Source of the DNA: Patescibacteria group bacterium
GTDB taxonomy: Bacteria; Patescibacteriota; Minisyncoccia; Phycocordibacterales; DATDWN01
DNA length: 64,000 nt
Assembly: GCA_040384485.1 (NCBI GenBank)
Contig: JAZKJH010000003.1
Location: 71,556-135,555 of the forward strand
Direction of reading: 5' to 3'
Position 1 is the first letter of the stretch. Each line of letters begins with the position of its first letter. Shown in pieces: positions 33,285-58,975 of this stretch. The notes beneath the pieces were generated by a model. That model saw only the letters and a program-made list of their open reading frames with translations, was not told the DNA's origin and searched no databases. The position numbers and the translations under genes were made by a program.

Positions 33285-36200
33285 TTATTCAATTACTTCC
33301 TCAATAACTTCTACAGTTCGTGTCGCATAACTCCAGTTACCCCCTTCATCCATAGCTGAGTAAACTATTGTATGTGTAGCTGTTGCATTGGTAGATATAG
33401 ATACTGAAAGCATATCTACTCCGTTTACGTTGAAGTAGATTCCCAGGTTGTTGTTTGCATTGTTTTCATCATCTAGGTCTGTGACTGTTGCTCCTAGGTC
33501 TGAGTAGTTAGAGTTTAGTGGTATTTGTAGGTTAGCACTTCCGGTTATTGTGATGACTGGTGGGATTGAATCGGTTGGGCCTTCTTCTATAGTTTCAGGT
33601 TCTGGCTCAGGATCTCCTCCCCCTTCTTCTGGTGCCTGTGTTCCACAAATTCCTGCAACAGAAACCATTGCCCCGTTTCGCATCTTCATACAATATGGGT
33701 CATTTGTCACTTCGTCGTATATTGTAATACCTGTTGGGTTTGAACTACTTCCTACAGTTAGTCTGTCTGCAATAATATTTTTAAAGTAAGCAATACCATC
33801 GACGAACTTAGCCCCTACAGTTTCAAACTGATTTACAAATCCATCCAAAACATCGTTGAAATTTATTCCAGTACTTTCTGGTGTACTACTTGCAACAATT
33901 TGTTCTAGATTTGTTAGTCGAGAACCAGTATTTAAATCTAATTCTTGAATAGCATTTATTGCGGCTGCCAGTATGGTAGTTGTATTTACTTGCAAAGTTC
34001 CACTTGGGTTTGTGTTTACTGCATCAGGAATAGCTTGTTGGATGTTCTGAGCAATGAATCCAGAGTATAGAACTCCATTATCATACAAACCAGAATCTGT
34101 TTTCCATGAGTATGTTTGTGGGTTGATTTGATTTATTGCAGACAATCCTGATGTAAACTCGCTTTGTATGTCTTTTAGTCTTTCGTCTGAGGTACAACTC
34201 ATAGTACCGGAACCATTTGTCTGAATACCTCCACAAGAAACAAGGTTTGTGACAGCGAATGTTCCTCCCCCTATTACTGACGGACCATCACTTTGGAAAT
34301 AGTTAGTTAGACCATTTGCAGCGTTATACATATATAGAGAAGTGTCTCCGTCTGACTGTATTTCAAGACTGAGCTTGTTAGAACTGCCAACTTTTACAGC
34401 AAAAGGTACAGTACTTACAGCACCTGCTACTGTTAGTTTATTAGTTGCGTCAGTAGTTCCAATACCAACATTACCCGCAGAATCTAATGTAAACGACTTA
34501 GTAAACACACCTCCTGCTCGACTTAAAAGATGCAGTTTTGTGCCACTATTTTGCATTCCAATTACACCGTCGGTCCCGTCATTACCGAGCATAACCGCGT
34601 TCACATCAACACCGAAAGCTCCTGAGATTGTAGCTATACTGTTGGTTACACCACCGGATACAGCTAGTTTTGCATAACTAGAAGGGATACTTGTTCCCAC
34701 ACCAACTCCCCCATTTGCCAAAACAGTTAGCAAATTTGCACTGGCATTATTATCTACAACCAAGGCGTATTTGGCAGAATTCACTCCTCCTGCTTTTATA
34801 TATACACCATTTCCGTCGTTTGCCTCTGTGTTATAGAAAGTCGCGATACTTCCAGCTACCGAACCAGAGACACTTAGTTTGCTGTCTGGTGACGCGGTTC
34901 CAATACCAACATCTCCACCTTGCTCAATAGCCACTCTTATATCTCCTCCAGAACTCGCAAACTCCAAGTTTGGTGTAGCATTGTTTGAAGAATACACGTT
35001 CCATTTTTGTGTCCCAGCCTGACTATATATTAGCTGTGCATAGTTAGATGTTGTTCCAGCATTTATATATGTGGACTGATTCCCAGAAGCAGAAAACCTA
35101 ACACTGTCTCCGAGTATATCTAGTTTATGAGCCGGATCAGCTGTTCCAATACCAATATCCCCTGTAGATTCAATGACCATCTCATCATTTCCTGCGTTGT
35201 TGTAATTAAGCCTAAAGGTGTTGTCTGTATGGTTATACATTCCCCAGAAGTTTGTTGAGTTTGTTGCCTGCAAACCGACAATTCCTTTTACTTCCAATGT
35301 TTGAGTTGGACTAGAAAGTCCTATTCCCACCCCACCTGTAGCAAATATTCCCAACTTGGTACCGTTTGATTGTAAGTATGCCTGCGTTGTTGAATTATCG
35401 TTATCCAAGAAAGTAAGTGTTCCTTCGTCCACACTTCCGTTACTTCTACCTATGATACTGATTCCATTTGCGCCACTGTTTGATTGTACTGAAAGTGGAA
35501 ATGTAGGGTTTGTTGTTCCAATTCCAACATTTCCACCAGCCTTAATTCTCATCGCTTCAGAAATTGCTGTGACAGCAGTGCTAGCCTTTACACCAAACAC
35601 CAAATCACTAGATGTATTTACCGCACCACTAGTCAAAACAGCCCCGATGTATGCCTGGTTTGTGTTTGCATTGTTAGCAATCCATCTATATACAGTTCCT
35701 GTCCAATCACCCACTGTACCTGCAGTTGGGTTTACTATTTCTTGTTGGAATGCAGTTCCTATTGCACCACCTGTTATTGCATTGGAAATAGTTAATCTCG
35801 CACCTGGGTCAGTCGTGCCAATACCAACATTGCCACCTCCAACTTGTAACGAAAGGTTAGCTGTAGCAAAAGTTCCTGTATATCCTTGAATTTGAGCTCC
35901 GGCCGATCCTCCACCTAATCCGACAGCGTATGAACCTGAACCTTGGAAAAATCCTGAGTAGGTATTACTTGTATCTGCAACAGTCAGTCTTGCTGCTGTT
36001 GGTGTTGTTGTTCCGATCCCAACGTTGCCCGTACTTGCAACTCTCATCCTTTCGTTGTTGCCATTAGTATAAAATCTAATAACACCACTAGCATCTGTAG
36101 CGGCCAAAGAAAGTCCTCCCACAAGATTTGCCTCGAGTAACATACTGTCTTGTATGTATCTTCCACTGGTTGTGTACCCGGATCCAAATGTATACAAATA

Positions 36201-39200
36201 AGAAGTCCCGTTATTTGTTGTTTGACCCAAAGCTGTGTATGCACCAGTTCCCGTACTTTGGTTAAGTATGTTTATAGAAGTTACAGCGTCTTGTGTTTTT
36301 GCAACTTGCAAAAGTTGTGTTGGTCCTGATGTTCCTACTCCCACACGACCTGTATTGTCGATAGTAAAATAATCCGAAGTTCCTAATGTTCCACTTCCTG
36401 AAATTTTCAACTTATCACTATCAGAATTATCTATACCCATTGAATATTGTTGCCCACCAGTTAGGTACCATGAAATACTAGTGTCCCCTGTACTGTTTTG
36501 TTCCAACATTGCCAATGGGTTTGTTCCGGAAGTATTTTTATAAACTGTTAGTGGCCACTGTGGACTTTCTGTTCCAATGCCAACCTCACCATCTCCATCA
36601 ATAGTAAGTCTTGCTGTTCCTGCAGTTGCGAAAGCAATTGAAGTTGCAGCAGGTCTGTACATACCAGCTGATGCGTCATTTGAAAAACCGTAAGCAACAC
36701 TTGAAGCAGAACCATCTGACGTTCTTAGTGCGCCCGCAACACCTATTTGTCCAGAACCTACTTTGTAAAAACCAGTTGAAGTTTGCGAACTAAATGCTAT
36801 GGAGGGTGTTCCAACTAAACCATCTGCCACATAAACTGCAGTTGAAGAAGCTGTTCCTTGTACATCTAGTTTTGTTTGAGGATTAGTTGTTCCAATACCT
36901 ACATTTCCATTTGTACCCTCAATAGTTAAGTCAGGATATGTGTTTGATGTGCCTAAATTTAAACTAGTTGAACCTGGAGAACGCACTGTTCCACTACCAA
37001 GAAACAGTCCGTTTACTGACAAAGCATCGTTAGCAGAATCCCAAGTTAGTTGAGTTGTGTCTGTGGTTAGAGCACCCGCACTGTTATACAAAACTAGTTG
37101 ACCTGTATTAGCACCAAGAGCTGGAAGAGTCGCCCTAATCCCTCCGTTTACATCAAGGGTTGTGCTTGGACTGGTTGTTCCAAGCCCCACAAAACCACTA
37201 CTTCCCAATATACTTAGAGCGGAAGTTGTGGTCGTTGCAGTACCTGCAACAGTTGTTGTTGCTAAATAGAAGTTTCCTCCTGCATTTCTCATTACCCATT
37301 GTGAAATACCTCCTCCTGCAGAGAGAGCTAGTTGTGGTGCTGTAGCTGAGGTTGGGTTAAGTATCCATTGTGGGGTTGTTGTTCCGATACCAACGTTTCC
37401 TGTTGAACTAATAACCATTCTTTCGTTGGTAGGTAATGTTGCCACGTTTCCTATAGTGCTTCCAGCGAAAAATCTAATATTTGCAGTTGACGCAGTTATA
37501 AGATCTTCTGAGCCCCCGTTATTAACTGCTATAGTAGCCCGAAGGCCGCCACTTGGTTCCATAAGTGCTATCTGAGCATTTACACCACCGTTGATACCTT
37601 GAATCTCTAACTTTCTTGCGGTAGGTACTCTTCCAATACCTAACCATGCAGAAGATGCATCTACAACTAAAGCATTTGTACTCCCTGCTTCACCGACTCT
37701 AAAGTCTCCGTCAATATCAAGAAGATATGAAGGTGTACTGGTTCCAATACCCACATTACCAGCGTTTGTTATTCTCATCTTTTCAGTAGTCACGTCAGAT
37801 GTGTATGATCCCCCAAATGCACCTGCTGTGTAAAAAGACAACCCTGTCTCACCAGAAGCACCTTCACTTATACCAGACAATTTTGCACGAACACCTGAAG
37901 CAGCAAACGTTTGACCAGATGAAGCATCACCACCAAAAAATTGGACAGACCCCAGAACATCATCAGCAACAATTGCAGAAAAAACATTACTTAGTCTAAG
38001 TATTGATGTGTTTGAAGTTGCAGAAGAAACTTCAAGTTTTACTTGAGGGGTGCTGGTTCCAACTCCAACATTACCTTGAACAAGTAGTCCGTTTGAAGGA
38101 GCAGCTGTCGTATCATATCCAGCACCAATTGTAGCTCCTCCGGAAACAGAAAGACGAGAACCTGGTAGCAGCTCACCTACCCCCAAAGAACCATCGTCCC
38201 TAAGAGCAAGAAGGGTTGTCTGATCAGAGTTCTCAACATACATCGCATATGAAGCATTTGTATTGCCTCCACCTCTAGTAATAAACTTATATCCGGTAAG
38301 CGGGACACTTCCTATACCAACACTACCAGATGCATCGATGATAAATGGTGTGGAATCCGGGGAACTCGAGTCCTCAACAACAAAAGAAGGTGCTGACCCT
38401 GTGTTCGTTACCGAGAGTTTGCCCCACGGTGTTGTTGTTGCTATTCCAACATTTCCTGAAGAGCTAACAACTAACCTATAAGCATCACTAACATGTCCTA
38501 AACCTATGCTTTGCCCATCAGCTGCTTGCATTATTATTGGGTAGTTTGGTGCGTAAATTTGGAAAGCGGAAATATCTCCGCGAGATTGCATTACTGCTTG
38601 TTGAGTTGACCCGTTGTAAAAGGAAACTCCTGAATAACCCCCTGAAGAGCCGTAAAATCTTGAGGTGTCGGAAACAGATGTGTCTCCGATATATGCTAAA
38701 CCATTAACTTGAAGCTTTGCCACTGGACTTGCAGTCCCAATACCAACATTGTTGGTTGAATAGTCATATACCAAACCTGATGTTTCGATTGCTAACCCCC
38801 CAGCGATTGTTGATGTCGCATTTGTGGATGTGGCATTGAAGTTTCCAAAAGTTGGTGTTGAGGTTGCGACTAATGCACCAGATGAATTGGTAGAGAGTAA
38901 TGAGTTGATTGCTGTGCCCGATAAAGTAATAGCCGGAGTAACCACACTTGTTCCTACATACAACGTTCTTGGTCTAGTTGCTCCTGAGGCACCGATATCG
39001 AGAGTATTGTCTGTTGCAGCAAGAAAATGTCCCGTAGCATTTATTCTCCATTTTTGAGCACTGCCCGTCATAAACAGCAAATCTCCTGTGCTGTGTTGTC
39101 CGTATATTTCTTGAGCATTTGCAAATCTAATAGATGAACTATCACTATCAGTTCGCAACTCTCCTGTTCGGTCTCCAGCTCCGGTGCTCAACCTCCTCCA

Positions 39201-44921: not shown

Positions 44922-45540
44922 TAACCTAATTATATATTTCTTGTAAACAATAAAGTTTCAAAATATGTTGATAATTAGCTAAATAACGGCCATCCGGGGT
45001 TACAAAACAGGACGATATTTTGGAAAAATTTAGCCAACTTTTACATCCACAAATGCTAATTATTTTAAGCAAAAAGAATGCCGAGCAAATTAGTCTAATT
45101 ACTAACCTAAATAGCTGCGCTTTTCCCTGTAAAGCTAGGGGTATGGAGATATTGGAAGGATGGGGTTCTTATGAAGGACTAAAAATTTGATTGGTATGTC
45201 ACAAACGCCAAATTTATATATAAAAGTTGATAAATTTTATTAAATTTCATTGCATCTTTATCAAGGTTTATTCTGGTTTGCAGTATTTATAGCTTGTATT
45301 TGATACTGAGCTTCTGACTATTGGTCCCCACTTGTTTGAGTTGATGAGACTAGCATGGTGCCGACAACCTAAGCTAGGGGGCGACTTCTTTGTTCCCTTC
45401 TCATGTACCTCAATGACCGAGTAAGGTAATTTATTTTTGGCAACTAATGAATTTCAAATATCCAGAATTACAAAAAGTCCTATTTTTCATAGAATAGTTA
45501 CAAATTATTTATAAAAAATGTCAATGCCCGATTTATAAAT

Positions 45541-49932: not shown

Positions 49933-49953
49933 GTTTTTGTTTGTGCTTATTTC

Positions 49954-52900
49954 CTACTCTCCACCTTCACCACCCTCTTCTGGTAATTCCTCTGGTGGAC
50001 CTTCGACCGTTTCTTCTATAACCTCCACCGTCCTAGTTGCATAACTCCAATTCCCTCCTTCATCCATAGCTGAGTAAACTATTGTATGGGTAGTTGTTGC
50101 ATTGGTAGATATAGATACTGAAAGCATATCTACTCCGTTTACATTGAAGTATATTCCTAGGTTATTGTTTGCATTGTTTTCATCATCTAGATCTGTGACG
50201 GTTGCTCCTAGATCTGAGTAATTAGAGTTTAGTGGGATTTGTAGGTTAGCACTTCCGGTTATGGTGATTACTGGTGGGATTGAGTCTCCTGATTCTGGGG
50301 TTTCTTCTTCCTCAGGTTCGTTGTTTTGTTCTTGCACCAAATCCAGCAAGGCTCTGATATCATCTTTTGTTAGACATTCGTCATCCACACAGATTTTCTC
50401 GTTTGCAGTAAACACGTTTGCAAACATATTCCCTATTCCGTTTGTTGTCTCACTAAACCATGCGACTAGTTTTGTTTTTATTCCTGTCCAGAAAGCGCTT
50501 GCAAAACCATCTGCCTCAGTTGTATTGGTTGTATTTATTCCAGCAATAGTTTCTAGGTTTAAATTCATCTCTTGAATTGATTTAACAATTAGCGGCGTTA
50601 TCCTTCCGTAATCAACTGCCCACATATCATCTGGATTTGCTGGAACACTAACTGCGGTTGGGTAAATATCATGTAGTTCTTGCGCAACAAAACCTGTTTG
50701 AGGAGTGTTGTTCAAGTCAGATGTCATTGTATAATCACGCACCTTTATTGCCATTAGATCGGAAAGTTTGTAATGCGTATCTACAATTCCTGATTTTGCT
50801 CTAACATCTGAAGTTGTGTTATATGTCGTAGCACTTCCAGTGTATGTGACAGAGCCCACTAGCTCACTGCCATCACCATCGTAGAAATACAGCAAGTTAC
50901 CTGCGCCACCGTTCGCGTGCTGTCCTGCGGCTATACCAACACCTCTAGCATCAGAATTATTTCCATCATTGTGAAAAAATGCTGCCCAGTTCGCAACCTC
51001 AGAAATTTTTACTTGTAATTGTCCTGCACCCACTGTTGGGGTTCCGACAGTAACATTGCCAGTGCTCAAAACAGTCATTAGTTCAGTAGATCCATCAAGA
51101 AAAGCCAGCCCTGCGATATCATCAGTAGCAGCTTCTCTTATAGTTGCCAAATTAAATGAATCGGTTCCACTAGTGTGAGTGAATCTTAGTTGAGTATTTC
51201 TCGCATTCGCAGCCCCACCACCAACCTCAACAGAAAGTTTTGCTCCTGGGGTGGTTGTTCCGATACCAACATTTCCGGCAAAATAGTTGTAAGCTCCCGT
51301 GTCAGAAGCGTAAAAAGAATAGGGGGTGTTGGTTTGAGTGCCAGTAGTTAAATCCCCCGCATAGTATGCGTAAGTATTGGTTATAGTACCGGAATTAGAT
51401 AGGACGCTGGCTTCGAAAAGATTCAGGGTAGTAACTGTTGATGCACTGGCGAACGTTGCTCTTGATCTTACACCTATCGCTGAGGTCACGGTACTACCTG
51501 TACTTGTTGGATTCAAAACTACTCCTGAGTCTAATCCTTGGAGAGTTGTTACTGTACCGGTGCCCGCAATAGATGCAGAAAATAAACCAGCTGAAACCAG
51601 AGATGCTGTTGCAGATCCTGCAAGTTGAGCGCTGGAATCTAAAGCTCTTATTGCGTTAACCTGCCCAGTACCTTGATGATAGGCGCCTATATGATTTCCT
51701 GTTAATGACAAGTTTGAATGACCAAAAGTACTCCCAACTGGTGTAGAAATATAAGTTTGAACACCTCTATATAGTCTGGATGATGAAGGATTCCCTGTTA
51801 AATTAATTTCAGTTTCAAACCAGTTTGATCTGTATGGACTTGCAACTACAGGGTCTGGGTCAGTTATAGTCTGAACAGATTTGAAAGCTCCAACACCACC
51901 ACTTACTGAAGCGGAAGTTATTTGGTTTGTGTAAGAACTCCAATTGTTCGTATTTGCGATATCTAATTTTGCACCAGGAGTAGTTGTTCCAATACCAACA
52001 CTTCCAGCAAAATAGTTTAATGTGTTATTGTCTGAAGCATATATTGAATACTCACTGCCAGATTGTGTTCCGTTTGTGATGTCTCCTATATACAGACCAT
52101 ATGTGTTACCTGCAATGGTTCCGAGGTTTGATAGATCCGCTACCTCAAAATGTTTGACGTCAGTAAGTAGGTTTGCACCTGCAGAACTCTGATAAAAAGT
52201 TGCTTTTACAACCGTGCTCGTTCCCATTGTTCCAATATTCGCACTAATAGCATTTAATGCCATTGAGGTTGTTGCAAAACCCAAACTTAAAGACCTGGCT
52301 CTGACACCATCCATATCTTTGTTGTAACCAGAGTTTATAAAAGTGAAGTCCCCTGCTCTTCCTGTGGTAATAGTTCCTCCAGCAGAGTTTGATACCCAAC
52401 CATAGGTACCGACAGCATCAGTTATTGTTCCTCCACCTGTGTTCAGAACTTCTCCGTAATTGGTCCATGCGCCACCAATAGTTCCAGTTCCTGCGTGTTT
52501 AACTGTGTTATACAAACCGTACATATATCCTCCATTTTGACTATTGCCACTGACAGTGCTCAATGCCAAACTTTGATTGAACACCGTGTTTGACCATGAA
52601 CTTGTTGGGTTAATGCTTGTGTATACCGCTGAGTTTGCAATACGAGTCACCCCGGAAGCGTATGACGGATCAGTTATTGTGGATGAGCTGATATTTCCAA
52701 TATTATACAAACTTCCGGAAGCTGGATTTGTGAAGGTAATATTTGTAGACGGTAAAACTGTGTTTACTATTGTTCCTCCAGTTGGTGCAACAGTTAGATT
52801 TCCATTTGTAGAAACTGTTAGTGATGTATAGTTGCTTGCATCGTAACCAAGACGAAGTTGTTCAGTGGTAGAAAGGGTGTGGAGTTTAGCCGCTGGTGTT

Positions 52901-55900
52901 GTTGTTCCGATACCAATCAACCCATTTGAAACCGGAGTAGAAGACATGCTACTTCCGTTATATATCCCTGTTGCATAAAGAACATTTCCTATGTTTAACT
53001 GCCTGCTTCCTGCCACAACAGGAACATCAACATTTGAACCGATAATTATATTGTTTGCGCCGGTGGTGTTTGAGTAACCAGACCTATATCCTAAAAAAAT
53101 ATTGTAATCAGACCCAGTTTGAACACTGTATCCGGATGCAGTTCCCATATATATTCCACCTTGATTTGTGTAATTGGCTCCATTGCCTGCTGCAGCTGAC
53201 ACTCCTATAGCAATATTTGATGTAGATTGTGTGTTTAATCCTAGTGACCCTTGGCCTATACCGATACTGTCTGATCCTGCAATGTTAGTGTTTAAGGAAA
53301 ACAAACCAATTGCGATGTTGGAATTTCCAGTTGTAACACCGAGGGTGCTGGGACCTATTGCAACGTTGTATGCACCGTTTGCTGATACCATAGAACTGTA
53401 TCCAATAGCGACATTCTCTCCGCCGCTTGTATTGCCTGCTAGTGCATTTACTCCCATAGATACGTTTCTACCTCCACTAACATTACTTATCAACGAACGG
53501 TATCCGACAGCTGTGTTATCGCTCGCCCCACTTGTAGAACCTCCTCCATATAGTCCAGCTTGATAACCAACAAAAGTGTTCCCTGTGGCTGCAGAGACAT
53601 TGTTTTTGCCCGCTTGATATCCCAGCTTTGTACTGAAAGTGGTGTTGCTAAAATCTATCAAATCGTAGACACTAATTAAGTTGTTTGGGGTTGTGGTTCC
53701 AATACCAACCCTACCCCCATTCGTCACTACAAAATTCGTCGCTGTAGACGAACCTATAGCAAAAGCCGGACCTGTGATTCCGTTTGGATTTATTGAGAGT
53801 TGGGCCCATGGAGTTGTGGTTCCAAACCCTGTAAAGCCTGTTAGGGATTTGGTTGTAAATACGGGGTTTGCAACATTCAGCAAAACAGATGCTGTGGTTG
53901 TGTTGTTGTTTGTGGTCACTATATCCAACTTTCCATTTCCGTCAAAATCCCCTAAAGCAACATAGAATGGGCCGTCACCTGTCGCATAATCAACTTTTGT
54001 AGCAAATGTTCCGTTTCCGTTGTTTATCAAAACCGAAACTGTATCTGAGCCATGGTTTGTTGAAACAATATCTACAAAACCATCTCCGTTTACGTCACCC
54101 AGGGCTATCCCAACACTTCCTGCGTTTGTATAGTCTACCCTAGCGGCAAATGTTCCGTTTCCGTTGTTTATAAAAACCGACACCCCACCACTTCGCATTA
54201 CCACAATATCCGCCTTTCCATCACCACTCAAATCAGCCGCTTTTACACTGTATTGCTCTCCTGGTACAGCGTATTCCACATCTGCTCCAAAAGTTCCATC
54301 GCCGTTATTCATCATTACTGCCATAGTAGCAGTGGTCCAGTCGTCAGTGGCAATATCCACGTATCCGTCTCCATTAAAATCTGCTGCTGCAAGACCTTGT
54401 GGTCTACCGGTAGCGGTGGTGTACTTTACTCTTGTTGCTAGAGTTCCATTCCCATTGTTCATATACACAGACACACCTGTGTCAAAATAACTTGCACTTG
54501 CCACATCAAGTTTTCCGTCTGCATTAAAGTCTGCTAAAGATAAGTTTTCTTCATAGGCTCCGCCTCCGTAATTAACTCTCGTAGCAAATGTTCCGTTGCC
54601 ATTGTTTAAATAAATAGCAACTCCGCTAGCACCACCTAGGGTAACTACCATATCCAACTTACCATCACCATTCATGTCCCCCAATGCCACAGCCGTTGGA
54701 ACACTACCTGTTGCTGCATAATCAACTTTTGTGGCGAATGTTCCGTTGCCATTGTTTATAAAAACTGACACAGTCTCACTCCCTCTGTTAACCACCACCA
54801 CATCATCTTTCCCATCACCGTTAACATCACCTGTTGTTACACCTAATGGACTGGTCCCGGTTGTGTAGTCAACTTTTGTGGCGAATGTTCCGCCTGAAGT
54901 TAGACTTATCTCCCCTGCTTTTATTGAGCCGATATTTACCAAGTTTCCAGATGAGGTTATTCTTTGAGAAATCGGCAACATTTCTGTCCCCCCTGTTCCT
55001 AACCCGCCAGATAGATTTAAATAACTATTAAACCCAACAGGTCCTGGAGAAATTGTTGAGCCGAAGGCTTTTGAAAGTATTATAGATTCTGCACCAACCC
55101 CTCCTCCAGCCACAGTAAGTTTTGATCTTGGGGTTGTTGTTCCTACGCCAATATTTCCAGTCGTGCCTTTTATGGTTAAACGTTCAGTCCCTTCTGTTTT
55201 AAACGCGTAGTCTGGACCGATTCCAAAACCAAGGGGTGGTGTGTCAAATGCACTCCAAACTCTTATTGTGTTTGTTGGAAAATCGAATTGTGTTAATCCG
55301 TCCTGCCTAATCTCACCTGGGGTACCGTCGAAATTTATTTTCCCAGCAACAACACCTCCTTTACCTAGAGTGAAAACTGCGGAGGAAGGATTAAAACTAA
55401 ATATAGTATCGTCTGATGAGTTTAGTATTGAAGCTGTGCCCTTTACTGTAAGTAGCCCTGTTGGGTTTACGGTTCCAATTCCAACATTTCCAGAGCTTGT
55501 TACAGAAAGGAAGGTTGATGCTGTGGAACCTATTGCAAAAGCTGGATCAGTAAGTCCTGTAGTATCTACTGAAAATTTTGCCCATGGGGTTGTTGTTCCA
55601 ACACCAACCTTTCCTGAAGTTGGATTCAAAACAACATTTCCTGCACTACCCTCTATAGAGATTCTAGTTGTTCCATTTGTGCCTATAGCTATTTGTTGTC
55701 CGGCTGAGTGGTCACTGATAGTAAAGTTATCAAAACCCAACCTTTCGTTTCTAACAAGAAATCCGTTGTTTGCATTGTTGTATCCAACTGACCAACCACT
55801 AGTAGCTCCTGTAAAAAATCTAACTTTTGCGTCATCTGTCTCAAGTGTTCTATTTATATATAAATTATTTTTAATTCCTACTGTTCCCTCTACAGCGAGT

Positions 55901-58320
55901 TTATATCCAGGTGATGTTGTTCCTATTCCAACATTTCCTCCATTGGTCACAATAAAATTTGTTGCTGTTGATGAACCGACAGCAAAAGCTGGACCTGCTA
56001 TTCCATTTGGGTTTATAGACAATTTTGCCCAAGGTGTAGTTGTGCCTATGCCGACATTGCCAGTTGATCCATTTATCACCATTCTAGTTTCTTGGCTACC
56101 TAAAAACGCCCCACTTGTGTTGAAAGCGATACCCGACCAGGCACCAAGATTCAAATATCCACCACCAACTGTTGATCCTAAATCTCCACGAAAAATACCG
56201 TTGGTGTAGTTTCCACTTCCTGTATCAATATCACCAAGATTAATGGTTCCAGAATCATCTGCTGTGCCAACTCGCAAAACCCCATTTATTTCCAGTTTTT
56301 CTGTTGGGTTTGAAACCCCCAATCCCAATCTTCCGTTGAGTGTATCTATATTGAGCACAGATGTCCCTGCAGCATTTTGAAAATTAAAAGCATTTATTTG
56401 ATCATTCTCTGGAACAAAGTTTAGAGATGAATTAGCTCCGTTCACTGCTACGGTTGTAGAGCCGTTTGCGGTTGTAGAAAATGTTGCCTCGTTACTCGCA
56501 TCGTATTGGAGTCTGAATTGAGGAGTTGATATTGAAGTTATTGTCTGACTACCTGAGTTAATAATTCCTCCTGCGTATAAGTTTCCAGAGTTATCTACTC
56601 GAAACAAATCTGTTGCTCCGTTCGCAGTTTTAAAAGTTATAAAGTCACCACTTGGAGCAAGGTCTGTTGCACGTCTTGAGGCAAATAAGGTTAGTCCGTT
56701 TTGTGATTGAACTAAATCTAGGGTCGCGGCGGGCATAGTGGTCCCAATACCTATCCTTCCGGAATTCTGTTGAACAACAAATTGACTCCCCCCTACAGCC
56801 AAACCTCCGGTTGAAATAGTAGAGGTAGCAACAGTACTAGTTGCGTTAAAATTCCCAAAGGTGGGAGTTGAGGTCGCCACAACTACCCCATCAGAACCTA
56901 TTGATAGCAACGAGTTTATTGCAACTCCTGAGAATGTTATGGTGGGAACTGAAAACGTTGTCGCGGAAAGATTGGTTGCTGTTATGGATGTGTTTGTGAT
57001 AGTTCCCCCGCTAATAGTTGGTGTCGTGATGCTAGGATTTTGGATTGTGGTATTTACAAGATTATCTATTTTTCCAGTGTGAGCTATTTGCTGGTATATG
57101 TTTGTAACTGCGTTGTTACTACCAGTTGAAAGACTTGAAAGTTGAATCGATAGTTCACTCGCAAATTTATTACTTGTTTCAGAAAGTCTTTGTTCTAAGT
57201 ATTCTCGGGTTACCCCAGTTACTGTGGTTGGAACAACTCTTTCAATAATTCTTTCAATTACAGGGTTAGTAACTATATTTTGCACAACAGGTGTATTTGT
57301 TGAAACAATAGTTTTTGTCGGAGCAACAGCTATTGGTTTTGCTTCATCCGAAACATATGTCTTTTCTGGAATTTGAATTGATGGTGTTTCTGCTTCTAAA
57401 GAATCGTCGGTGCCAAATAGTCCGCTAATAAAATTATAAATACCAACACTAGCTTTATCAAAAATATTTAACTCTTCGACAGAAGATGACACTTGCGCAC
57501 CAAACCTTCTAGCTTCATTTTTTGCAAGCGAGTTTGCTATAGATACTCCGTCTAATGATTCTGAGATAAAAGCTAGTGCACTGTAATAGTTACTTGCAAC
57601 TATTTTTTGTGTTTCAGAAAAACCAACATCGATAACTTTTTTATTTTTAAGTGCAAGTTCTTCTGTTGCTCCCCTTATGTAAAGTGATGGGTTTTTAAAA
57701 AACTTATAAGAATGTTGCGCGAAAAGTGAGCTCGCATTATCAATTTTATTTCCCAATGAAATATATGTGGGTGTTGCCAACTTTGAATACAAGTCAATTG
57801 TTTCATCTACTGATTCAAAAAAGTGGTGCGGGGCACTAGATATGTTTTTGGAAAGTTTTGGATAATCTACTTGAGTTATGGTGTGCCCAACAAAAACCAG
57901 CATCAAACCGAACGCCAAAGGCATCAGGTGTCTAGTAAAATAAACCAAAGATAGTGACCCTCTCATCATTGGAAACTTTGGGGAGGAAAGAATGTCGCCA
58001 ACATGAGCCTGAATCTTGCTTGCACTTTTTTGAGACAATTCCTCAATTTTCTTTACCGCAATACTTGCCGAGATATCGTTATTTTTAGATGTTTCAAAAA
58101 TCTCGGAGTGACGAGAAGTTTTTATTTCTAGGTCTTTTTTTTCAGTTCCGTAGTTAAGTATTGAGCTCTCAGCCACATACCACAAGTCCCCTACTTTTTT
58201 AGAATCTATTTTCCCAGAACGTGAAAGTTGACCGATGTAGTCGCGTGTATAGCCAGTAATCCTACTAGCATCTTTAACGGAAATATACTTCTTCTGATCA
58301 AAATAGAGCTCAGTTATCAT
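49954..58320 (-). CDS. Giant surface protein 3 (2788 aa). Contains an N-terminal MerR-like HTH, a TM, FG-GAP/VCBS beta-propeller repeats, Gly-rich fibre repeats, an S74-like intramolecular chaperone and a C-terminal DUF5011-like domain.
   Basis: N-terminus KYISVKDASRITGYTRDYIGQLSRSGKIDSKKVGDLWYV; TM LMPLAFGLMLVFVGHTI. About 7 FG-GAP units (GDVNGDGKDDVVVVNRGSETVSVFINNGNGTFATKVDY...). SDVRAKSGIVDTHYKL...GFVAQELHDIYPTAV. C-terminal IPPVITITGSANLQIPLNSNYSDLGATV.... Confidence 0.85.
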   Translation of the reverse strand: MITELYFDQKKYISVKDASRITGYTRDYIGQLSRSGKIDSKKVGDLWYVAESSILNYGTEKKDLEIKTSRHSEIFETSKNNDISASIAVKKIEELSQKSASKIQAHVGDILSSPKFPMMRGSLSLVYFTRHLMPLAFGLMLVFVGHTITQVDYPKLSKNISSAPHHFFESVDETIDLYSKLATPTYISLGNKIDNASSLFAQHSYKFFKNPSLYIRGATEELALKNKKVIDVGFSETQKIVASNYYSALAFISESLDGVSIANSLAKNEARRFGAQVSSSVEELNIFDKASVGIYNFISGLFGTDDSLEAETPSIQIPEKTYVSDEAKPIAVAPTKTIVSTNTPVVQNIVTNPVIERIIERVVPTTVTGVTREYLEQRLSETSNKFASELSIQLSSLSTGSNNAVTNIYQQIAHTGKIDNLVNTTIQNPSITTPTISGGTITNTSITATNLSATTFSVPTITFSGVAINSLLSIGSDGVVVATSTPTFGNFNATSTVATSTISTGGLAVGGSQFVVQQNSGRIGIGTTMPAATLDLVQSQNGLTLFASRRATDLAPSGDFITFKTANGATDLFRVDNSGNLYAGGIINSGSQTITSISTPQFRLQYDASNEATFSTTANGSTTVAVNGANSSLNFVPENDQINAFNFQNAAGTSVLNIDTLNGRLGLGVSNPTEKLEINGVLRVGTADDSGTINLGDIDTGSGNYTNGIFRGDLGSTVGGGYLNLGAWSGIAFNTSGAFLGSQETRMVINGSTGNVGIGTTTPWAKLSINPNGIAGPAFAVGSSTATNFIVTNGGNVGIGTTSPGYKLAVEGTVGIKNNLYINRTLETDDAKVRFFTGATSGWSVGYNNANNGFLVRNERLGFDNFTISDHSAGQQIAIGTNGTTRISIEGSAGNVVLNPTSGKVGVGTTTPWAKFSVDTTGLTDPAFAIGSTASTFLSVTSSGNVGIGTVNPTGLLTVKGTASILNSSDDTIFSFNPSSAVFTLGKGGVVAGKINFDGTPGEIRQDGLTQFDFPTNTIRVWSAFDTPPLGFGIGPDYAFKTEGTERLTIKGTTGNIGVGTTTPRSKLTVAGGGVGAESIILSKAFGSTISPGPVGFNSYLNLSGGLGTGGTEMLPISQRITSSGNLVNIGSIKAGEISLTSGGTFATKVDYTTGTSPLGVTTGDVNGDGKDDVVVVNRGSETVSVFINNGNGTFATKVDYAATGSVPTAVALGDMNGDGKLDMVVTLGGASGVAIYLNNGNGTFATRVNYGGGAYEENLSLADFNADGKLDVASASYFDTGVSVYMNNGNGTLATRVKYTTATGRPQGLAAADFNGDGYVDIATDDWTTATMAVMMNNGDGTFGADVEYAVPGEQYSVKAADLSGDGKADIVVMRSGGVSVFINNGNGTFAARVDYTNAGSVGIALGDVNGDGFVDIVSTNHGSDTVSVLINNGNGTFATKVDYATGDGPFYVALGDFDGNGKLDIVTTNNNTTTASVLLNVANPVFTTKSLTGFTGFGTTTPWAQLSINPNGITGPAFAIGSSTATNFVVTNGGRVGIGTTTPNNLISVYDLIDFSNTTFSTKLGYQAGKNNVSAATGNTFVGYQAGLYGGGSTSGASDNTAVGYRSLISNVSGGRNVSMGVNALAGNTSGGENVAIGYSSMVSANGAYNVAIGPSTLGVTTGNSNIAIGLFSLNTNIAGSDSIGIGQGSLGLNTQSTSNIAIGVSAAAGNGANYTNQGGIYMGTASGYSVQTGSDYNIFLGYRSGYSNTTGANNIIIGSNVDVPVVAGSRQLNIGNVLYATGIYNGSSMSSTPVSNGLIGIGTTTPAAKLHTLSTTEQLRLGYDASNYTSLTVSTNGNLTVAPTGGTIVNTVLPSTNITFTNPASGSLYNIGNISSSTITDPSYASGVTRIANSAVYTSINPTSSWSNTVFNQSLALSTVSGNSQNGGYMYGLYNTVKHAGTGTIGGAWTNYGEVLNTGGGTITDAVGTYGWVSNSAGGTITTGRAGDFTFINSGYNKDMDGVRARSLSLGFATTSMALNAISANIGTMGTSTVVKATFYQSSAGANLLTDVKHFEVADLSNLGTIAGNTYGLYIGDITNGTQSGSEYSIYASDNNTLNYFAGSVGIGTTTPGAKLDIANTNNWSSYTNQITSASVSGGVGAFKSVQTITDPDPVVASPYRSNWFETEINLTGNPSSSRLYRGVQTYISTPVGSTFGHSNLSLTGNHIGAYHQGTGQVNAIRALDSSAQLAGSATASLVSAGLFSASIAGTGTVTTLQGLDSGVVLNPTSTGSTVTSAIGVRSRATFASASTVTTLNLFEASVLSNSGTITNTYAYYAGDLTTGTQTNTPYSFYASDTGAYNYFAGNVGIGTTTPGAKLSVEVGGGAANARNTQLRFTHTSGTDSFNLATIREAATDDIAGLAFLDGSTELMTVLSTGNVTVGTPTVGAGQLQVKISEVANWAAFFHNDGNNSDARGVGIAAGQHANGGAGNLLYFYDGDGSELVGSVTYTGSATTYNTTSDVRAKSGIVDTHYKLSDLMAIKVRDYTMTSDLNNTPQTGFVAQELHDIYPTAVSVPANPDDMWAVDYGRITPLIVKSIQEMNLNLETIAGINTTNTTEADGFASAFWTGIKTKLVAWFSETTNGIGNMFANVFTANEKICVDDECLTKDDIRALLDLVQEQNNEPEEEETPESGDSIPPVITITGSANLQIPLNSNYSDLGATVTDLDDENNANNNLGIYFNVNGVDMLSVSISTNATTTHTIVYSAMDEGGNWSYATRTVEVIEETVEGPPEELPEEGGEGGE

Positions 58321-58673: not shown

Positions 58674-58916
58674 ATGGCAAATCTCTATATAACAATAAAA
58701 CAGGCAGGAAAAATACTTGGAGTGACTCCTCTCACCTTGAGAAACTGGGACAAGAACGGTAAGCTAAAAGCCCATAGACACCCGATGAATAACTATCGTG
58801 TTTACAAGATCGAGGACTTGGAGAAAGTGATTCATGAGATAGAAACACACGCAGGACTTCGCAAGAGTACAAAAAAAGAAGTTCACAAATTGATTGTTAA
58901 GCATTTGGAGGAATAG
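58674..58916 (+). CDS. Small MerR-family HTH DNA-binding protein
   Basis: ANLYITIKQAGKILGVTPLTLRNWDKNGKLKAHRHPMNNYRVYKIEDLEKV matches the MerR-type HTH (..tigelA...gvs..tLR.We..GLl.p.r...gyR.Y...dl). ATG at 58674 is preferred over the TTG at 58635. A TATAAT box lies at 58629-58634. Confidence 0.65.
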   Translation: MANLYITIKQAGKILGVTPLTLRNWDKNGKLKAHRHPMNNYRVYKIEDLEKVIHEIETHAGLRKSTKKEVHKLIVKHLEE

Positions 58917-58925
58917 CAATACAAA

Positions 58926-58960: not shown

Positions 58961-58975
58961 TTTTGTGTTCTGTTC

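What the first reader, a model, noticed from the sequence alone, without database searches (positions are those of the whole stretch)
33285..58320. Three paralogous giant surface-protein genes with near-identical 5'/3' modules and divergent cores (cassette-like family)
Genes of 11.6, 4.4 and 8.4 kb lie head-to-tail on the minus strand, ~25 kb of the 64-kb window. Their last ~280 bp are ~90% identical at DNA level (compare 33290-33590, 45545-45850, 49990-50290). They share N-proximal blocks (NPVVERIVERL; VYQQIAHTNKID.L.NVT; SLLSTNSSGAIVATSTPTFGNFNATSTTATSTI). Their centres differ: fibre-like Gly repeats, FG-GAP propeller, NxT-rich repeats. The conserved ends plus variable middles suggest gene conversion, or antigenic or host-range variation of adhesins or fibres. 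In a CPR-like episymbiont these are prime candidates for host-cell attachment. Amino-acid composition is extreme, with many NxT/NxS sequons, so possible glycosylation.
Basis: partly seen in the sequence, partly recalled or inferred. Interest (0 to 1): 0.6.

Follow-up and report, generated by a model that had tools for sequence, protein, structure and literature searches.

The report
Cell-anchored phage-like fibre genes, tandem
Three neighbouring giant genes of an ultra-small (Patescibacteria/CPR) bacterium encode membrane-anchored proteins built like phage tail fibres, each ending in a predicted self-cleaving folding domain plus a shared small terminal domain that recombination has kept almost identical among the three copies; they are good but untested candidates for host attachment.

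Summary
The three ORFs are real and intact: A 33285-44921, B 45541-49932, C 49954-58320, all on the minus strand. The window is a chromosomal contig of an NCBI 'Patescibacteria group bacterium' MAG.

Only the last ~92 codons are near-identical at DNA level (A/C 90.6%, A/B 83.6%, B/C 82.5%). The "5' modules" are protein-level blocks with saturated synonymous divergence.

All three proteins are phage-tail-fibre-like:
- A and C carry a Peptidase_S74 intramolecular-chaperone domain with the Ser/Lys dyad (TSDERLK, TSDVRAK).
- B carries instead the non-homologous phi29-gp12-type Peptidase_G2 chaperone (D-I-A-E).
- In all three, a Cys hairpin and the shared Ig-like domain follow. The conserved 3' module would therefore be cut off with the chaperone and is not part of the mature fibre.
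- A and C start with a cytoplasmic HTH_17 plus a transmembrane helix. B starts with a signal peptide or anchor.

Gene conversion is supported for the Ig module only: lower dS, phylogenetic incongruence, and no such homogenisation in seven other multi-copy genomes. A cassette or antigenic-variation system and sequon enrichment are not supported.

The family is large (over 2,000 cluster representatives). The chaperone-plus-terminal-Ig ending was found almost only in Patescibacteria. Function in host attachment is inferred.

The parts
33285..44921 (-). Gene A, 3878 aa (NCBI MES3005008.1, 'tail fiber domain-containing protein')
   Evidence: Intact ORF. Name. Hits phage tail-fibre PHROGs 9942 (2.9e-53) and 18345 (6.9e-28).
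44562..44894 (-). A: two N-terminal HTH_17 (MerR/excisionase-type) domains, aa 10-58 and 73-120, predicted cytoplasmic
   Evidence: Pfam PF12728, 42.8 bits on the N-terminal fragment, two stretches. TIGR01764 below threshold.
44325..44390 (-). A: single transmembrane helix, aa 178-199
   Evidence: Kyte-Doolittle window 2.18, preceded by a 25%-charged segment.
43692..43982 (-). A: N-proximal conserved block (NPVVERIVERL ... VYQQIAHTNKID), aa 314-410
   Evidence: Alignment. 47-49% aa identity to B and C with dS above 2.
38715..41237 (-). A: three copies of the 'junction' block (SLLSTNSSG..TSTPTFGNFNATSTTATSTI) at aa 1242, 1635, 2007. They mark about 380-aa repeated fibre units.
33825..34241 (-). 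A: Peptidase_S74 intramolecular chaperone domain, aa 3561-3699. Predicted cleavage T3577|S3578, with K3583 (TSDERLK at 34173-34193).
   Evidence: Pfam 1.1e-13, 51.7 bits on the fragment. Ser and Lys invariant in 17 homologues. AF2 pLDDT above 90 in the core; Foldseek top PDB hit is the MyRF ICA domain 7dc3; 146 viral hits at E<=1e-3, top hits IMC/S74 tail-fibre proteins.
33573..33824 (-). A: helices, a Cys-Cys beta-hairpin (GITIYDEVTNDPYCMKMRNGAMVSVAGIC) and an acidic/Pro linker
33297..33572 (-). A: terminal Ig-like module (92 aa), homogenised among A, B and C
   Evidence: PF16403 at 26.9 bits, just under the gathering score of 27. pLDDT about 95 with Ig-like fold hits. dS and incongruence tests.
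45541..49932 (-). Gene B, 1463 aa (MES3005009.1, hypothetical protein)
49822..49890 (-). B: N-terminal signal peptide or signal anchor (aa 15-37). B has no HTH.
49033..49587 (-). B: N-proximal block (aa 116-212) and junction block (aa 225-300)
46078..46557 (-). B: Peptidase_G2-type (phi29 gp12) intramolecular chaperone domain, aa 1126-1285. Predicted cleavage A1139|D1140, with E1143 (SADIAENY at 46498-46521).
   Evidence: Profile of 16 homologues against PDB: 6qz9 at 3.1e-6 and 3gqh at 9.7e-5, aligned at the gp12 S691|D692 site. D, A and E are invariant. 11 of 16 members hit PF11962.
45544..46077 (-). B: helical 'NGIGDFFAN' segment with a C-x-C hairpin (aa 1286-1371), then the terminal Ig-like module (aa 1372-1463)
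49954..58320 (-). Gene C, 2788 aa (MES3005010.1, 'FG-GAP-like repeat-containing protein')
57871..58299 (-). C: one N-terminal HTH (aa 8-57) and a hydrophobic helix (aa ~128-150)
   Evidence: HTH_17 at 18.4 bits, below threshold, but 55% identical to A's HTH. The helix was read from the sequence; it did not pass the KD>1.8 cut-off used.
56725..57267 (-). C: N-proximal block (aa 352-448) and junction block (aa 457-532)
53821..54939 (-). C: seven FG-GAP repeats (aa 1128-1467, plus a partial repeat to aa 1500), a predicted beta-propeller inserted in the shaft
   Evidence: PF13517 at 2e-57. Repeat map. This region is absent from the shorter orthologue-like proteins P0017 and the L009 gene.
50491..50859 (-). 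C: Peptidase_S74 chaperone domain, aa 2488-2610. Predicted cleavage T2503|S2504, with K2509 (TSDVRAK at 50794-50814).
   Evidence: Pfam 2.7e-7, 31.2 bits on the fragment.
49957..50490 (-). C: pre-Ig helical/Cys segment (aa 2611-2678), terminal Ig-like module (aa 2679-2770, window 50011-50286), and an 18-aa acidic tail
58674..58916 (+). Small stand-alone MerR-type HTH gene (80 aa), divergent from gene C; a possible regulator of the locus
   Evidence: Pfam MerR 2e-10. The same divergent pairing (77% aa) sits next to the C-like gene in relative L009.

Best explanation
A, B and C are chromosomal genes of a Patescibacteria bacterium. They encode very long surface fibres, probably trimeric, built on the plan of phage tail fibres and tailspikes.

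Proposed mechanism:
1. Each protein is held in the cell's own membrane by its N-terminus. A and C have a cytoplasmic MerR/excisionase-type HTH followed by one transmembrane helix. B has a signal peptide or signal anchor.
2. The rest is exported. It is a modular shaft of Gly/Thr/Ser/Asn-rich repeats punctuated by conserved 'junction' blocks. Gene-specific inserts sit in the shaft, such as the seven-bladed FG-GAP propeller in C.
3. At the C-terminus each protein carries an intramolecular chaperone of a type known from phage fibres. A and C have Peptidase_S74 with a Ser/Lys dyad. B has the unrelated Peptidase_G2 type of phi29 gp12 with a D-x-A-E motif.
4. By analogy with K1F endosialidase, T5 pb1 and phi29 gp12, this domain nucleates trimerisation and folding from the C-terminal end. 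It then cuts itself off and exposes the distal tip of the mature fibre.
5. It therefore belongs to the discarded pro-piece, not to the adhesive part.
6. In this genome the Ig module has been homogenised among the three tandem paralogues by short-tract gene conversion and is under very strong purifying selection. This suggests it works with one shared cellular partner in export, assembly or anchoring.
7. The divergent cores give three fibres of different length and specificity, most plausibly for contact with host cells.

Shown: ORFs, domain identities, motifs, fold of A's S74 and Ig domains, dS pattern, incongruence, family distribution, synteny.
Inferred: trimerisation, self-cleavage, membrane topology, the role of the Ig module, and host attachment.
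For: DOMAINS
- S74 is above the Pfam gathering score in A and C.
- The catalytic Ser and the Lys five residues later are invariant in 17 diverse homologues. This matches T5 pb1, where Ser1264 is activated by Lys1269 (PMC4690869).
- The AF2 model of A aa 3547-3878 has pLDDT 78, above 90 in the S74 core and the Ig domain. The Foldseek top PDB hit is the MyRF ICA domain. There are 146 viral hits at E<=1e-3; the best-ranked are phage tail-fibre, neck-appendage and S74/IMC proteins.
- B's domain profile hits phi29 gp12 (6qz9 at 3e-6, 3gqh at 1e-4), aligned exactly at the S691|D692 cleavage site. D, A and E are invariant, and 11 of 16 members hit PF11962. Mature gp12* ends at residue 691 (PMC6542822).
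- A hits tail-fibre PHROGs.

CHROMOSOMAL, NOT PROPHAGE
- The flanks are LepA, MurJ, RNase P RNA, GatB, Obg and TyrRS. These flanks are syntenic in relatives L002 and L009.

FAMILY
- 2077 cluster representatives at E<1e-3. Of the top 150, 67 have an N-terminal HTH, 35 have S74, 15 have G2 and 36 have a C-terminal Ig.
- The Ig modules most similar to the window's (40-58% identity) are almost all in Patescibacteria, where a terminal Ig preceded by S74 or G2 recurs. In the non-CPR hits the Ig is an internal tandem repeat.

GENE CONVERSION
-.
Against: - There is no experimental evidence for trimerisation, cleavage, surface location or host binding.
- B itself does not hit Pfam Peptidase_G2. The assignment rests on a family profile, and the single-sequence AF2 model of B's C-terminus failed (pLDDT 34).
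- The residue before B's predicted scissile Asp is Ala, not Ser as in phi29.
- In the phage proteins cited here the chaperone is the extreme C-terminus. Here another ~180-240 residues follow it, so behaviour after cleavage may differ. The pro-piece could stay bound, for example.
- The HTH of C is below the Pfam threshold, and the topology is predicted from hydrophobicity only.
- dS of the Ig module is about 0.5, so homogenisation is not very recent. With only three sequences the recombination test has limited power.
Confidence: 0.68

Rival explanations
1. The genes are an antigenic- or phase-variation cassette system. Conserved 5' and 3' ends guide recombination that swaps variable cores between an expressed gene and donor copies.
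For: - The 3' modules are 83-91% identical at DNA level and show a mosaic of shared sites.
- The syntenic locus of a relative carries two 5'-truncated 3' remnants (283 aa and 140 aa).
- Orthologue-like proteins share their ends with C but lack about 1350 aa of its middle.
Against: - No DNA-level identity exists on the 5' side of the cores. The shared protein blocks have saturated dS.
- All three genes are complete, each with its own start and anchor. The window holds no silent or partial cassettes.
- The remnants in L002 carry the conserved end, not variable cores, and lie beside Bro-N and toxin-antitoxin genes. They look like debris of disruption.
- The homogenised segment encodes a domain predicted to be cleaved off.
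Confidence: 0.1
2. The identity of the 3' module reflects only strong purifying selection on an essential domain, or a recent triplication, without any gene conversion.
For: dN/dS for A versus C in the module is about 0.01. The domain is conserved across the family.
Against: - Synonymous divergence drops from saturated (1.2 to above 2) to 0.53-0.64 exactly at the module boundary.
- The adjoining S74 and pre-Ig parts of A and C belong to different sub-lineages with closer relatives in other genomes, yet their Ig modules are 99% identical.
- In seven other genomes paralogous terminal Ig modules are only 45-75% identical, and in all but three of the 15 copies compared that is no higher than to the closest module of another genome.
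- Site patterns switch between AB, AC and BC groupings.
Confidence: 0.12
3. The genes are tail-fibre genes of a prophage, tailocin or other phage-derived particle, not cellular surface proteins.
For: Tail-fibre PHROG hits, S74 and G2 chaperones, and NCBI's name for A.
Against: - The ORFs scanned on both flanks (17221-33236 and 58976-63041) are housekeeping genes, with no capsid, portal, terminase, sheath or baseplate gene among them. Those flanks are syntenic in relatives. ORFs in 1-17200 were not annotated.
- The N-termini are a cytoplasmic HTH plus transmembrane helix, or a signal peptide. They are not phage baseplate-attachment domains.
- Sizes of 1463-3878 aa and the recurrence of the HTH-to-Ig architecture in chromosomes of many Patescibacteria point the same way.
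Confidence: 0.05
4. The proteins are structural envelope components (an S-layer-like coat or cell-cell cohesion fibres) with no role in host recognition.
For: - The composition is Thr/Ser/Gly/Asn-rich and repetitive.
- Ig-like fold neighbours include S-layer proteins Sap and SlpX.
- No receptor is known.
Against: - The locus content varies greatly between close relatives: 1721 aa against 2788 aa for the C-like gene, and remnants in L002. That is more typical of interaction proteins under diversifying pressure than of a core coat.
- The FG-GAP propeller and phage receptor-binding-type architecture suggest ligand binding.
- Neither point is decisive.
Confidence: 0.15

Closest known systems
Phage tail fibres and tailspikes with a C-terminal intramolecular chaperone (K1F endosialidase, T5 pb1 L-shaped fibre; Peptidase_S74 / CIMCD)
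   Same: - S74 domain with the Ser/Lys dyad directly after a long fibre region.
- Predicted fold matches ICA domains and phage S74 tail-fibre proteins.
- A matches tail-fibre PHROGs.
- Expected mechanism: C-terminal trimer nucleation, self-cleavage, unmasking of the tip (PMC4690869).
   Different: - Encoded in a cellular chromosome.
- N-terminus is a membrane anchor, with or without a cytoplasmic HTH, instead of a virion-attachment domain.
- About three to ten times longer.
- The chaperone is not the extreme C-terminus. A Cys hairpin and an Ig-like domain follow it.
phi29 gp12 pre-neck appendage (Peptidase_G2 auto-chaperone)
   Same: B's penultimate domain aligns with gp12 at the S691|D692 site and keeps Asp and Glu (D-x-A-E).
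   Different: - B itself is below Pfam detection.
- Ala, not Ser, precedes the Asp.
- The domain is followed by the Cys hairpin and Ig module.
- The fold is not verified.
Eukaryotic MYRF (membrane-bound transcription factor with an ICA domain)
   Same: A DNA-binding domain, a transmembrane helix and an S74/ICA self-cleaving trimerisation domain occur in one polypeptide. The MyRF ICA crystal structure is the best PDB fold match.
   Different: - The domain order and topology differ. [quoted passage not shown]
- Here the transmembrane helix lies between the HTH and the ICA, so ICA cleavage cannot release the HTH.
ToxR/CadC-type membrane-tethered one-component regulators
   Same: Predicted topology: an N-terminal cytoplasmic DNA-binding domain, one transmembrane helix, and an extracytoplasmic domain.
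   Different: - The DNA-binding domain is MerR/excisionase-type HTH_17, not OmpR-type winged helix.
- The outside part is a fibre of 2,600-3,700 aa.
- No evidence of DNA binding or signalling.
Giant membrane proteins of CPR bacteria proposed to mediate host attachment (e.g. Vampirococcus lugosii, PMC8080830)
   Same: These are very large, membrane-associated proteins of a CPR bacterium, suggested to form surface fibres for host recognition.
   Different: That paper's passages on its giant proteins contain neither 'fiber' nor 'fibre'. I did not compare the sequences directly.
Concerted evolution of paralogous surface-protein genes (gene conversion among tandem paralogues)
   Same: Intragenomic homogenisation of one segment, with phylogenetic incongruence against the flanking segments.
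   Different: Only a ~276-nt terminal module is affected. It encodes a predicted pro-piece rather than an exposed variable region.

Membership tests
Peptidase_S74 / C-terminal intramolecular chaperone domain (A and C) | Pfam PF13884 match above the gathering score | tested here: met
   A 47.8 bits and C 26.8 bits against a cut-off of 22. On fragments, 51.7 and 31.2 bits.
Peptidase_S74 / C-terminal intramolecular chaperone domain (A and C) | Catalytic Ser with Lys five residues downstream (S-D-x-R-x-K) | tested here: met
   A has T3577-S3578...K3583. C has T2503-S2504...K2509. Ser and Lys are invariant in 17 homologues. Compare T5 pb1 Ser1264/Lys1269.
Peptidase_S74 / C-terminal intramolecular chaperone domain (A and C) | ICA fold | tested here: met
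   Tested for A only. pLDDT is above 90 in the core. Foldseek gives 7dc3_A at E 3e-4 with TM(target) 0.60, plus 146 viral hits at E<=1e-3 whose best-ranked members are S74/IMC tail-fibre proteins.
Peptidase_S74 / C-terminal intramolecular chaperone domain (A and C) | Trimerisation-dependent self-cleavage and release | not testable with these tools
   Needs protein expression or proteomics.
Peptidase_G2 (phi29 gp12 auto-chaperone) (B) | Sequence match to PF11962 or gp12 | tested here: inconclusive
   B alone has no Pfam hit at E<=1. A profile of 16 homologues hits gp12 structures at 3.1e-6 and 9.7e-5, and 11 of 16 members hit PF11962 (best 1.8e-5).
Peptidase_G2 (phi29 gp12 auto-chaperone) (B) | Asp at the scissile bond and Glu three residues later (D692/E695 in gp12) | tested here: met
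   B has D1140 and E1143. D, A and E are invariant in alignment A4 and aligned to 'SDFAEYF'.
Peptidase_G2 (phi29 gp12 auto-chaperone) (B) | Fold | tested here: inconclusive
   The single-sequence AF2 model failed (pLDDT 34). No further prediction jobs were available.
Bact_surface_Ig-like (PF16403) terminal module | Pfam match and Ig-like beta-sandwich fold | tested here: met
   Scores of 22.7-26.9 bits are just under the gathering score of 27. Homologues carry precomputed PF16403. The model has pLDDT about 95 with Ig/PKD/Big_3 neighbours.
HTH_17 / MerR-excisionase DNA-binding domain (N-termini of A and C) | Pfam PF12728 above the gathering score | tested here: met
   A scores 32.6-42.8 bits against a cut-off of 27, with two copies. 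C scores only 18.4 bits but is 55% identical to A's copies. DNA binding was not tested.
FG-GAP beta-propeller (C) | Seven FG-GAP repeats | tested here: met
   PF13517 at 2e-57 with seven stretches. Repeats are mapped to aa 1128-1467.
Antigenic-variation cassette systems (expression site plus silent cassettes, e.g. pilE/pilS, vls) | Silent, partial donor cassettes near an expressed gene | tested here: not met
   No further copies of any module exist in the 64-kb window. All three genes are full-length.
Antigenic-variation cassette systems (expression site plus silent cassettes, e.g. pilE/pilS, vls) | Conserved DNA on both sides of the variable segment | tested here: not met
   Extended DNA identity exists only at the 3' end. 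The 5' blocks reach at most 80% over at most 100 nt, with saturated dS.
Diversity-generating retroelement target | Template/variable repeat pair with adenine-specific differences | tested here: not met
   The only long repeats are the three 3' modules. Their differences are mostly synonymous transitions and transversions at all four bases.
Diversity-generating retroelement target | A reverse transcriptase gene nearby | tested here: inconclusive
   No reverse transcriptase was found among the ten flanking ORFs scanned. Not every ORF of the window was scanned.

The most novel reading that the evidence does not exclude
The HTH-TM-fibre-chaperone-Ig architecture could be a contact sensor. In this reading, a phage-like fibre that binds the host cell is physically joined, through one transmembrane helix, to a cytoplasmic MerR/excisionase-type DNA-binding domain. 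Engagement of the fibre, or its proteolysis, would then change gene expression directly in an episymbiont that has few conventional signalling systems.

Two further elements would fit this picture. The divergently transcribed small MerR gene could be part of the same circuit. The homogenised terminal Ig pro-domain could be a lineage-specific export or assembly handle shared by all fibres of a cell.
Probability: 0.12. Interest if true: 0.8.

Novelty: new variant of a known kind. Interest (0 to 1): 0.5.

Why it matters
How ultra-small Patescibacteria recognise and hold on to their hosts is largely unknown. Type IV pili are the only apparatus tested so far in the papers I found.

This locus suggests a second, widespread apparatus: cell-anchored fibres built and matured like phage receptor-binding proteins. 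Two interchangeable self-cleaving chaperone types are used, and the middle of the fibre changes quickly between relatives.

It gives concrete, testable predictions:
- exact cleavage sites;
- catalytic residues to mutate;
- a released Ig-containing pro-piece.

It also corrects where the functionally exposed tip should be, namely just upstream of the chaperone and not in the conserved end. Finally, it provides a clean small example of concerted evolution confined to one domain of tandem paralogues.

Tried and rejected
- Exact look-up of B among gene positions found nothing. The proteins were later found in the larger collection, with NCBI names.
- The first genome scan, with the three-paralogue alignment, found no confirmed relatives because the patterns were too specific. 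A 17-sequence alignment was too diverse to give patterns. An 8-sequence Ig alignment worked.
- A word-indexed homologue search with B's N-proximal and junction region gave only one hit. The exhaustive profile search was needed.
- The single-sequence AF2 model of B's C-terminus was useless (pLDDT 34).
- Pfam on fragments found nothing for the N-proximal or junction blocks, nor for B's chaperone domain alone.
- NCBIfam added only a sub-threshold excisionase HTH.
- Rfam found nothing in the 619-nt A-B spacer. The promoter and terminator scans there were no better than shuffles.
- Literature searches found no paper linking S74 or G2 chaperones, or 'tail fiber domain-containing protein', with CPR/Patescibacteria in the held library. 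That is absence in this library only.
- Considered and rejected: prophage tail-fibre genes, a DGR target, a silent-cassette system, sequon enrichment, and MYRF-like release of the HTH (the topology is wrong).


Full report
**1. The observation**

The window has three uninterrupted minus-strand ORFs at exactly the stated coordinates:

| Gene | Window coordinates | Length |
|---|---|---|
| A | 33285-44921 | 3878 aa |
| B | 45541-49932 | 1463 aa |
| C | 49954-58320 | 2788 aa |

Transcription order is C, then B after a 21-nt gap, then A after a 619-nt gap. Together they fill 24.4 kb of the 64 kb.

A blastn of the genes against each other serves as the requested dot-plot:

| Pair | Identity in the 3' module | Length |
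|---|---|---|
| A/C | 90.6% | 276 nt |
| A/B | 83.6% | 292 nt |
| B/C | 82.5% | 280 nt |

Everything else is short and weak, at most 82% over at most 200 nt. That includes the N-proximal blocks, which reach 75-80% over 75-100 nt. So the 3' claim holds, though only A/C reaches about 90%. The "near-identical 5' modules" claim does not hold at DNA level.

However, the 'SLLSTNSSG...TSTPTFGNFNATSTTATSTI' block is N-proximal only in B (aa 238) and C (aa 470). In A it is internal and present three times (aa 1242, 1635, 2007), about 380 aa apart. It marks repeated fibre units.

Sequons are not enriched. A has 2.24 per 100 aa. From A's N, S+T and P frequencies in the same call I calculate about 2.0 expected.

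**2. Where the window comes from**

The three proteins are exact matches to NCBI entries:
- MES3005008.1, [quoted passage not shown] (A);
- MES3005009.1, hypothetical protein (B);
- MES3005010.1, FG-GAP-like repeat-containing protein (C).

They sit on a 225-kb contig. The flanks are housekeeping genes:
- on one side RuvB, LepA, MurJ, a TPR protein, RNase P RNA and a TonB_C-domain protein;
- on the other side GatB, Obg and TyrRS.

No phage structural genes are nearby.

**3. What the proteins are**

Pfam finds the following:
- Peptidase_S74 ("chaperone of endosialidase") near the C-terminus of A (aa 3578-3635) and C (aa 2504-2557);
- HTH_17 at the N-terminus of A (two copies) and, more weakly, of C;
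- seven FG-GAP repeats in C, mapped to aa 1128-1467;
- a Bact_surface_Ig-like domain as the last ~90 residues of all three, at 23-27 bits, just under the gathering score.

A also matches phage tail-fibre PHROGs at 2.9e-53 and 6.9e-28.

The S74 motif is intact: A has C-T-S-D-E-R-L-K and C has T-T-S-D-V-R-A-K. In an alignment of 17 diverse family C-termini the Ser and the Lys five residues later are invariant. This is the dyad described for phage T5 pb1. There the Thr1263-Ser1264 bond is cut, Ser1264 is activated by Lys1269, and release of the chaperone unmasks the receptor-binding tip (PMC4690869).

An AlphaFold2 model of A aa 3547-3878, built with a 47-sequence alignment, has mean pLDDT 78. 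The S74 core and the Ig domain are above 90. Foldseek results:
- the best PDB match is the MyRF ICA domain (7dc3_A, E 3e-4, TM 0.60 on the target);
- next come Ig-like, PKD, Big_3 and S-layer domains;
- against viral models there are 146 hits at E<=1e-3; the best-ranked are mostly phage and giant-virus tail-fibre, neck-appendage or S74/IMC proteins, aligned over the chaperone only.

B has no S74. In the corresponding place (aa ~1126-1285) it has a domain found in 15 of the top 150 family members. A profile of 16 such domains matches the phi29 pre-neck appendage gp12 at E 3.1e-6 (6qz9) and the isolated gp12 auto-chaperone fragment at 9.7e-5 (3gqh). The alignment is in register with the gp12 cleavage site. 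Chain 3gqh begins at 'DFAEYF', and the family consensus is 'aaDlAEny'.

Further support for this assignment:
- Asp, Ala and Glu of this motif are invariant in the 16 sequences.
- 11 of the 16 hit Pfam Peptidase_G2.
- Mature gp12* ends at residue 691 (PMC6542822).

B therefore has the other, non-homologous kind of phage intramolecular chaperone. Its predicted cleavage is before D1140, with E1143 as the catalytic residue. B alone is below Pfam detection, and my single-sequence model of this region failed. This assignment is weaker than the S74 one.

Downstream of either chaperone come helices, a short two-Cys beta-hairpin and an acidic or proline-rich linker. The hairpin occurs in two sequence types. 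A has 'GITIYDEVTNDPYC...C'. B and C have 'NGIG..FAN...C..C.TK..L..LL'. The Ig-like module follows.

The consequence is that the conserved 3' module lies after the predicted self-cleavage point. If the chaperones work as in phages, the module leaves with the pro-piece, and the exposed distal tip of the mature fibre is the sequence just upstream of the chaperone.

At the other end the arrangement is as follows:
- A and C begin with the HTH domain(s) in a highly charged segment, followed by one hydrophobic helix. A's passes the hydropathy cut-off. C's (aa ~128-150) was read from the sequence and does not.
- B begins with a signal-peptide-like sequence.

The simplest topology has the HTH in the cytoplasm, one membrane pass, and the remaining 1,400-3,700 residues outside. 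The outside part is rich in Thr, Gly, Ser, Asn and Ala and carries many 'GxVGIGT' motifs (18, 5 and 10 in A, B and C).

**4. The family and its distribution**

An exhaustive profile search with the N-proximal plus junction region found 2077 cluster representatives at E<1e-3 and 267 at E<1e-10. Lengths reach 7214 aa, and the block is often repeated many times per protein. Among the best 150:

| Feature | Number of 150 |
|---|---|
| N-terminal HTH | 67 |
| S74 | 35 |
| G2-type domain | 15 |
| C-terminal Ig | 36 |

One protein has both chaperone types in series.

A scan of one genome per species found 88 confirmed Ig relatives. The best 80 were kept for analysis. Those most similar to the window's module (40-58% identity) are almost all Patescibacteria. 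They include Paceibacterota/Parcubacteria lineages such as Zambryski-, Kaiser-, Adler-, Giovannoni-, Harrison- and Vogelbacteria, and MAGs labelled Saccharibacteria.

In the fetched loci, an Ig was preceded within 260 aa by S74 in 27 cases and by G2 in 11. These are the Patescibacteria loci, where the Ig is terminal. A few G2 cases lie further upstream and were missed by my distance cut-off. In the non-CPR hits the Ig domain is an internal tandem repeat of unrelated surface proteins. The chaperone-plus-terminal-Ig ending thus looks characteristic of Patescibacteria.

**5. Gene conversion**

Five lines of evidence bear on this.

(a) Identity rises stepwise at the start of the Ig module.

(b) Nei-Gojobori dS and the share of identical residues that also use the same codon are lower and higher, respectively, in the Ig module than anywhere else:

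| Region | dS | Identical residues with the same codon |
|---|---|---|
| Ig module | 0.53-0.64 | 71-75% |
| All other shared blocks (N-proximal, junction, S74, pre-Ig, a B/C core block) | 1.2 to above 2 (saturated) | 34-62% |

dN/dS for A versus C in the Ig module is about 0.01.

(c) There is phylogenetic incongruence:

| Comparison | Upstream 225 aa | Ig module |
|---|---|---|
| A vs C | 31% | 99% |
| A vs L002 fragment | 49% | 43% |
| A vs P0022 | 43% | 60% |
| C vs P0017 | 51% | 70% |
| A vs B | 25% | 83% |
| B vs C | 49% | 84% |

Of 68 detected Ig modules, the three window copies are each other's closest relatives. The next best is about 70%.

(d) Within the module the informative sites are clustered into tracts favouring AB, then AC, then BC. 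There are 24 runs against 37.7 expected, p about 1e-4. The A/C tract (alignment columns ~239-300) is nearly identical between A and C. There B keeps a variant also seen in P0017.

(e) As a control, in seven other Patescibacteria genomes with two or more copies the terminal Ig modules are 45-75% identical within a genome. For all but three of the 15 copies compared, that is no higher than to the closest module of another genome.

Purifying selection alone therefore does not explain the window's 83-99%. I conclude that the Ig module, and only it, has undergone concerted evolution in this tandem array. It is not very recent overall (dS about 0.5), with a younger A/C tract. The other shared blocks are conserved by selection.

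**6. Locus dynamics in relatives**

Two relatives share the flanks.

L002/L003/L001 are groundwater contigs that share RuvB-YebC-RuvC-LepA-MurJ-TPR at 60-89% aa identity. Where A ends in the window, they carry:
- two 5'-truncated A-like remnants, one of 283 aa starting inside the S74 domain and one of 140 aa starting at 'DPYCLKMRNG';
- a Bro-N gene between the remnants;
- a nucleotidyltransferase/HepT pair after them;
- further upstream, another giant gene ending in S74 plus Ig.

L009 shares TyrRS-Obg-GatB at 77-80%. It also has a small divergent MerR gene (77% identical) next to a 1721-aa HTH...S74-Ig gene.

That gene and P0017 (1660 aa) align with C's first ~700-1050 residues and its last ~370-460 residues. 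They lack most of C's middle, about 1350 aa in the case of P0017, which includes the FG-GAP propeller.

So the site between conserved housekeeping flanks is a variable island. The fibres change mainly by gain, loss and exchange of shaft modules.

**7. Mechanism proposed, and its status**

Shown:
- intact ORFs;
- domain identities and catalytic motifs;
- the fold of A's C-terminus;
- chromosomal context;
- family distribution;
- dS pattern, incongruence and mosaic sites;
- synteny.

Inferred from established knowledge of S74 and G2 chaperones in phage fibres:
- the proteins trimerise from the C-terminus;
- they cut off the chaperone;
- the tip is thereby exposed.

Inferred from hydrophobicity and charge:
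- the N-terminus is in the cytoplasm;
- the fibre is outside, anchored in the producer's membrane.

Speculative:
- The Ig pro-module interacts with one shared partner in export, assembly or anchoring. That would explain both the extreme constraint and the tolerance of homogenisation.
- The fibres bind host cells.
- The cytoplasmic HTH gives the fibre a regulatory output.

**8. Comparison with what is known**

The chaperones are members of known families. S74 is tested and met for motif, score and fold. G2 is met for the motif and for the profile match, and is inconclusive for B alone and for the fold.

The whole architecture is a new variant as far as I could find:
- It is not a phage fibre, because it is cellular, membrane-anchored, and has extra domains after the chaperone.
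- It is not MYRF-like in logic, because the transmembrane helix lies between the HTH and the ICA.
- It resembles ToxR-type regulators only in topology.

Giant membrane proteins have been proposed as host-attachment fibres in CPR bacteria (PMC8080830). NCBI already names A a tail-fibre-domain protein. The general idea is therefore not new.

I did not find the following described in the held literature:
- two interchangeable phage-type chaperones in tandem paralogues;
- the shared cleaved-off Ig pro-module;
- the N-terminal HTH.

**9. Verdict**

This is a real and moderately interesting locus.

- Novelty: new variant of a known kind.
- Interest: 0.5.

Noticed in passing
window 58674-58916 (+): An 80-aa stand-alone MerR-type HTH gene lies in the 655-nt spacer upstream of gene C and is transcribed divergently from it. 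The same pairing (77% aa identity) sits next to the C-like gene in relative L009, at roughly L009:4594-4851 (-).
   Followed up: partly
window 32400-33236 (+): A 278-aa protein with a C-terminal TonB_C domain (6e-19) lies directly after the RNase P RNA and convergent with gene A. This is a domain usually linked to outer-membrane transport. Patescibacteria are generally considered to lack an outer membrane (my own knowledge, not tested here).
   Followed up: no
L002:8240-11108 (also L001 and L003): In the syntenic locus of a groundwater relative, two 5'-truncated A-like 3' remnants are separated by a Bro-N gene and followed by a nucleotidyltransferase/HepT toxin-antitoxin pair. A PemK toxin gene and a glycosyltransferase lie further upstream. 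The island looks like a target of mobile-element insertion.
   Followed up: partly
window 58921-58966: A 46-nt near-perfect palindrome, flanked by A/T runs on both strands, lies just downstream of gatB. It looks like a bidirectional terminator separating gatB from the MerR gene and gene C.
   Followed up: no
window 33285-58320 versus the flanks: The three giant genes have 40-44.5% G+C over most of their length, against 36-39% in the flanking housekeeping genes. This may reflect their Gly/Ala/Thr-rich composition or a different origin. A second higher-GC stretch (44-46%) at window 2001-8000 was not examined.
   Followed up: no
window 20496-22202 (+): A T2SSE/PilB-type ATPase (1.7e-115) lies 11 kb from the fibre genes, so type IV pilus or secretion machinery is present in the same region.
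   Followed up: no
window 44922-45540: The 619-nt spacer between B and A has no ORF above 56 aa, no Rfam match, and no promoter or terminator signal above shuffles. It contains a locally GC-rich stretch (about 45330-45400) of unknown meaning.
   Followed up: partly
protein P0053 (3930 aa) and P0022 (4336 aa): Some family members carry two chaperone domains in series: G2 then S74 in P0053, and two S74 domains in P0022 and in locus L022. This raises the question of whether they are cleaved twice.
   Followed up: no
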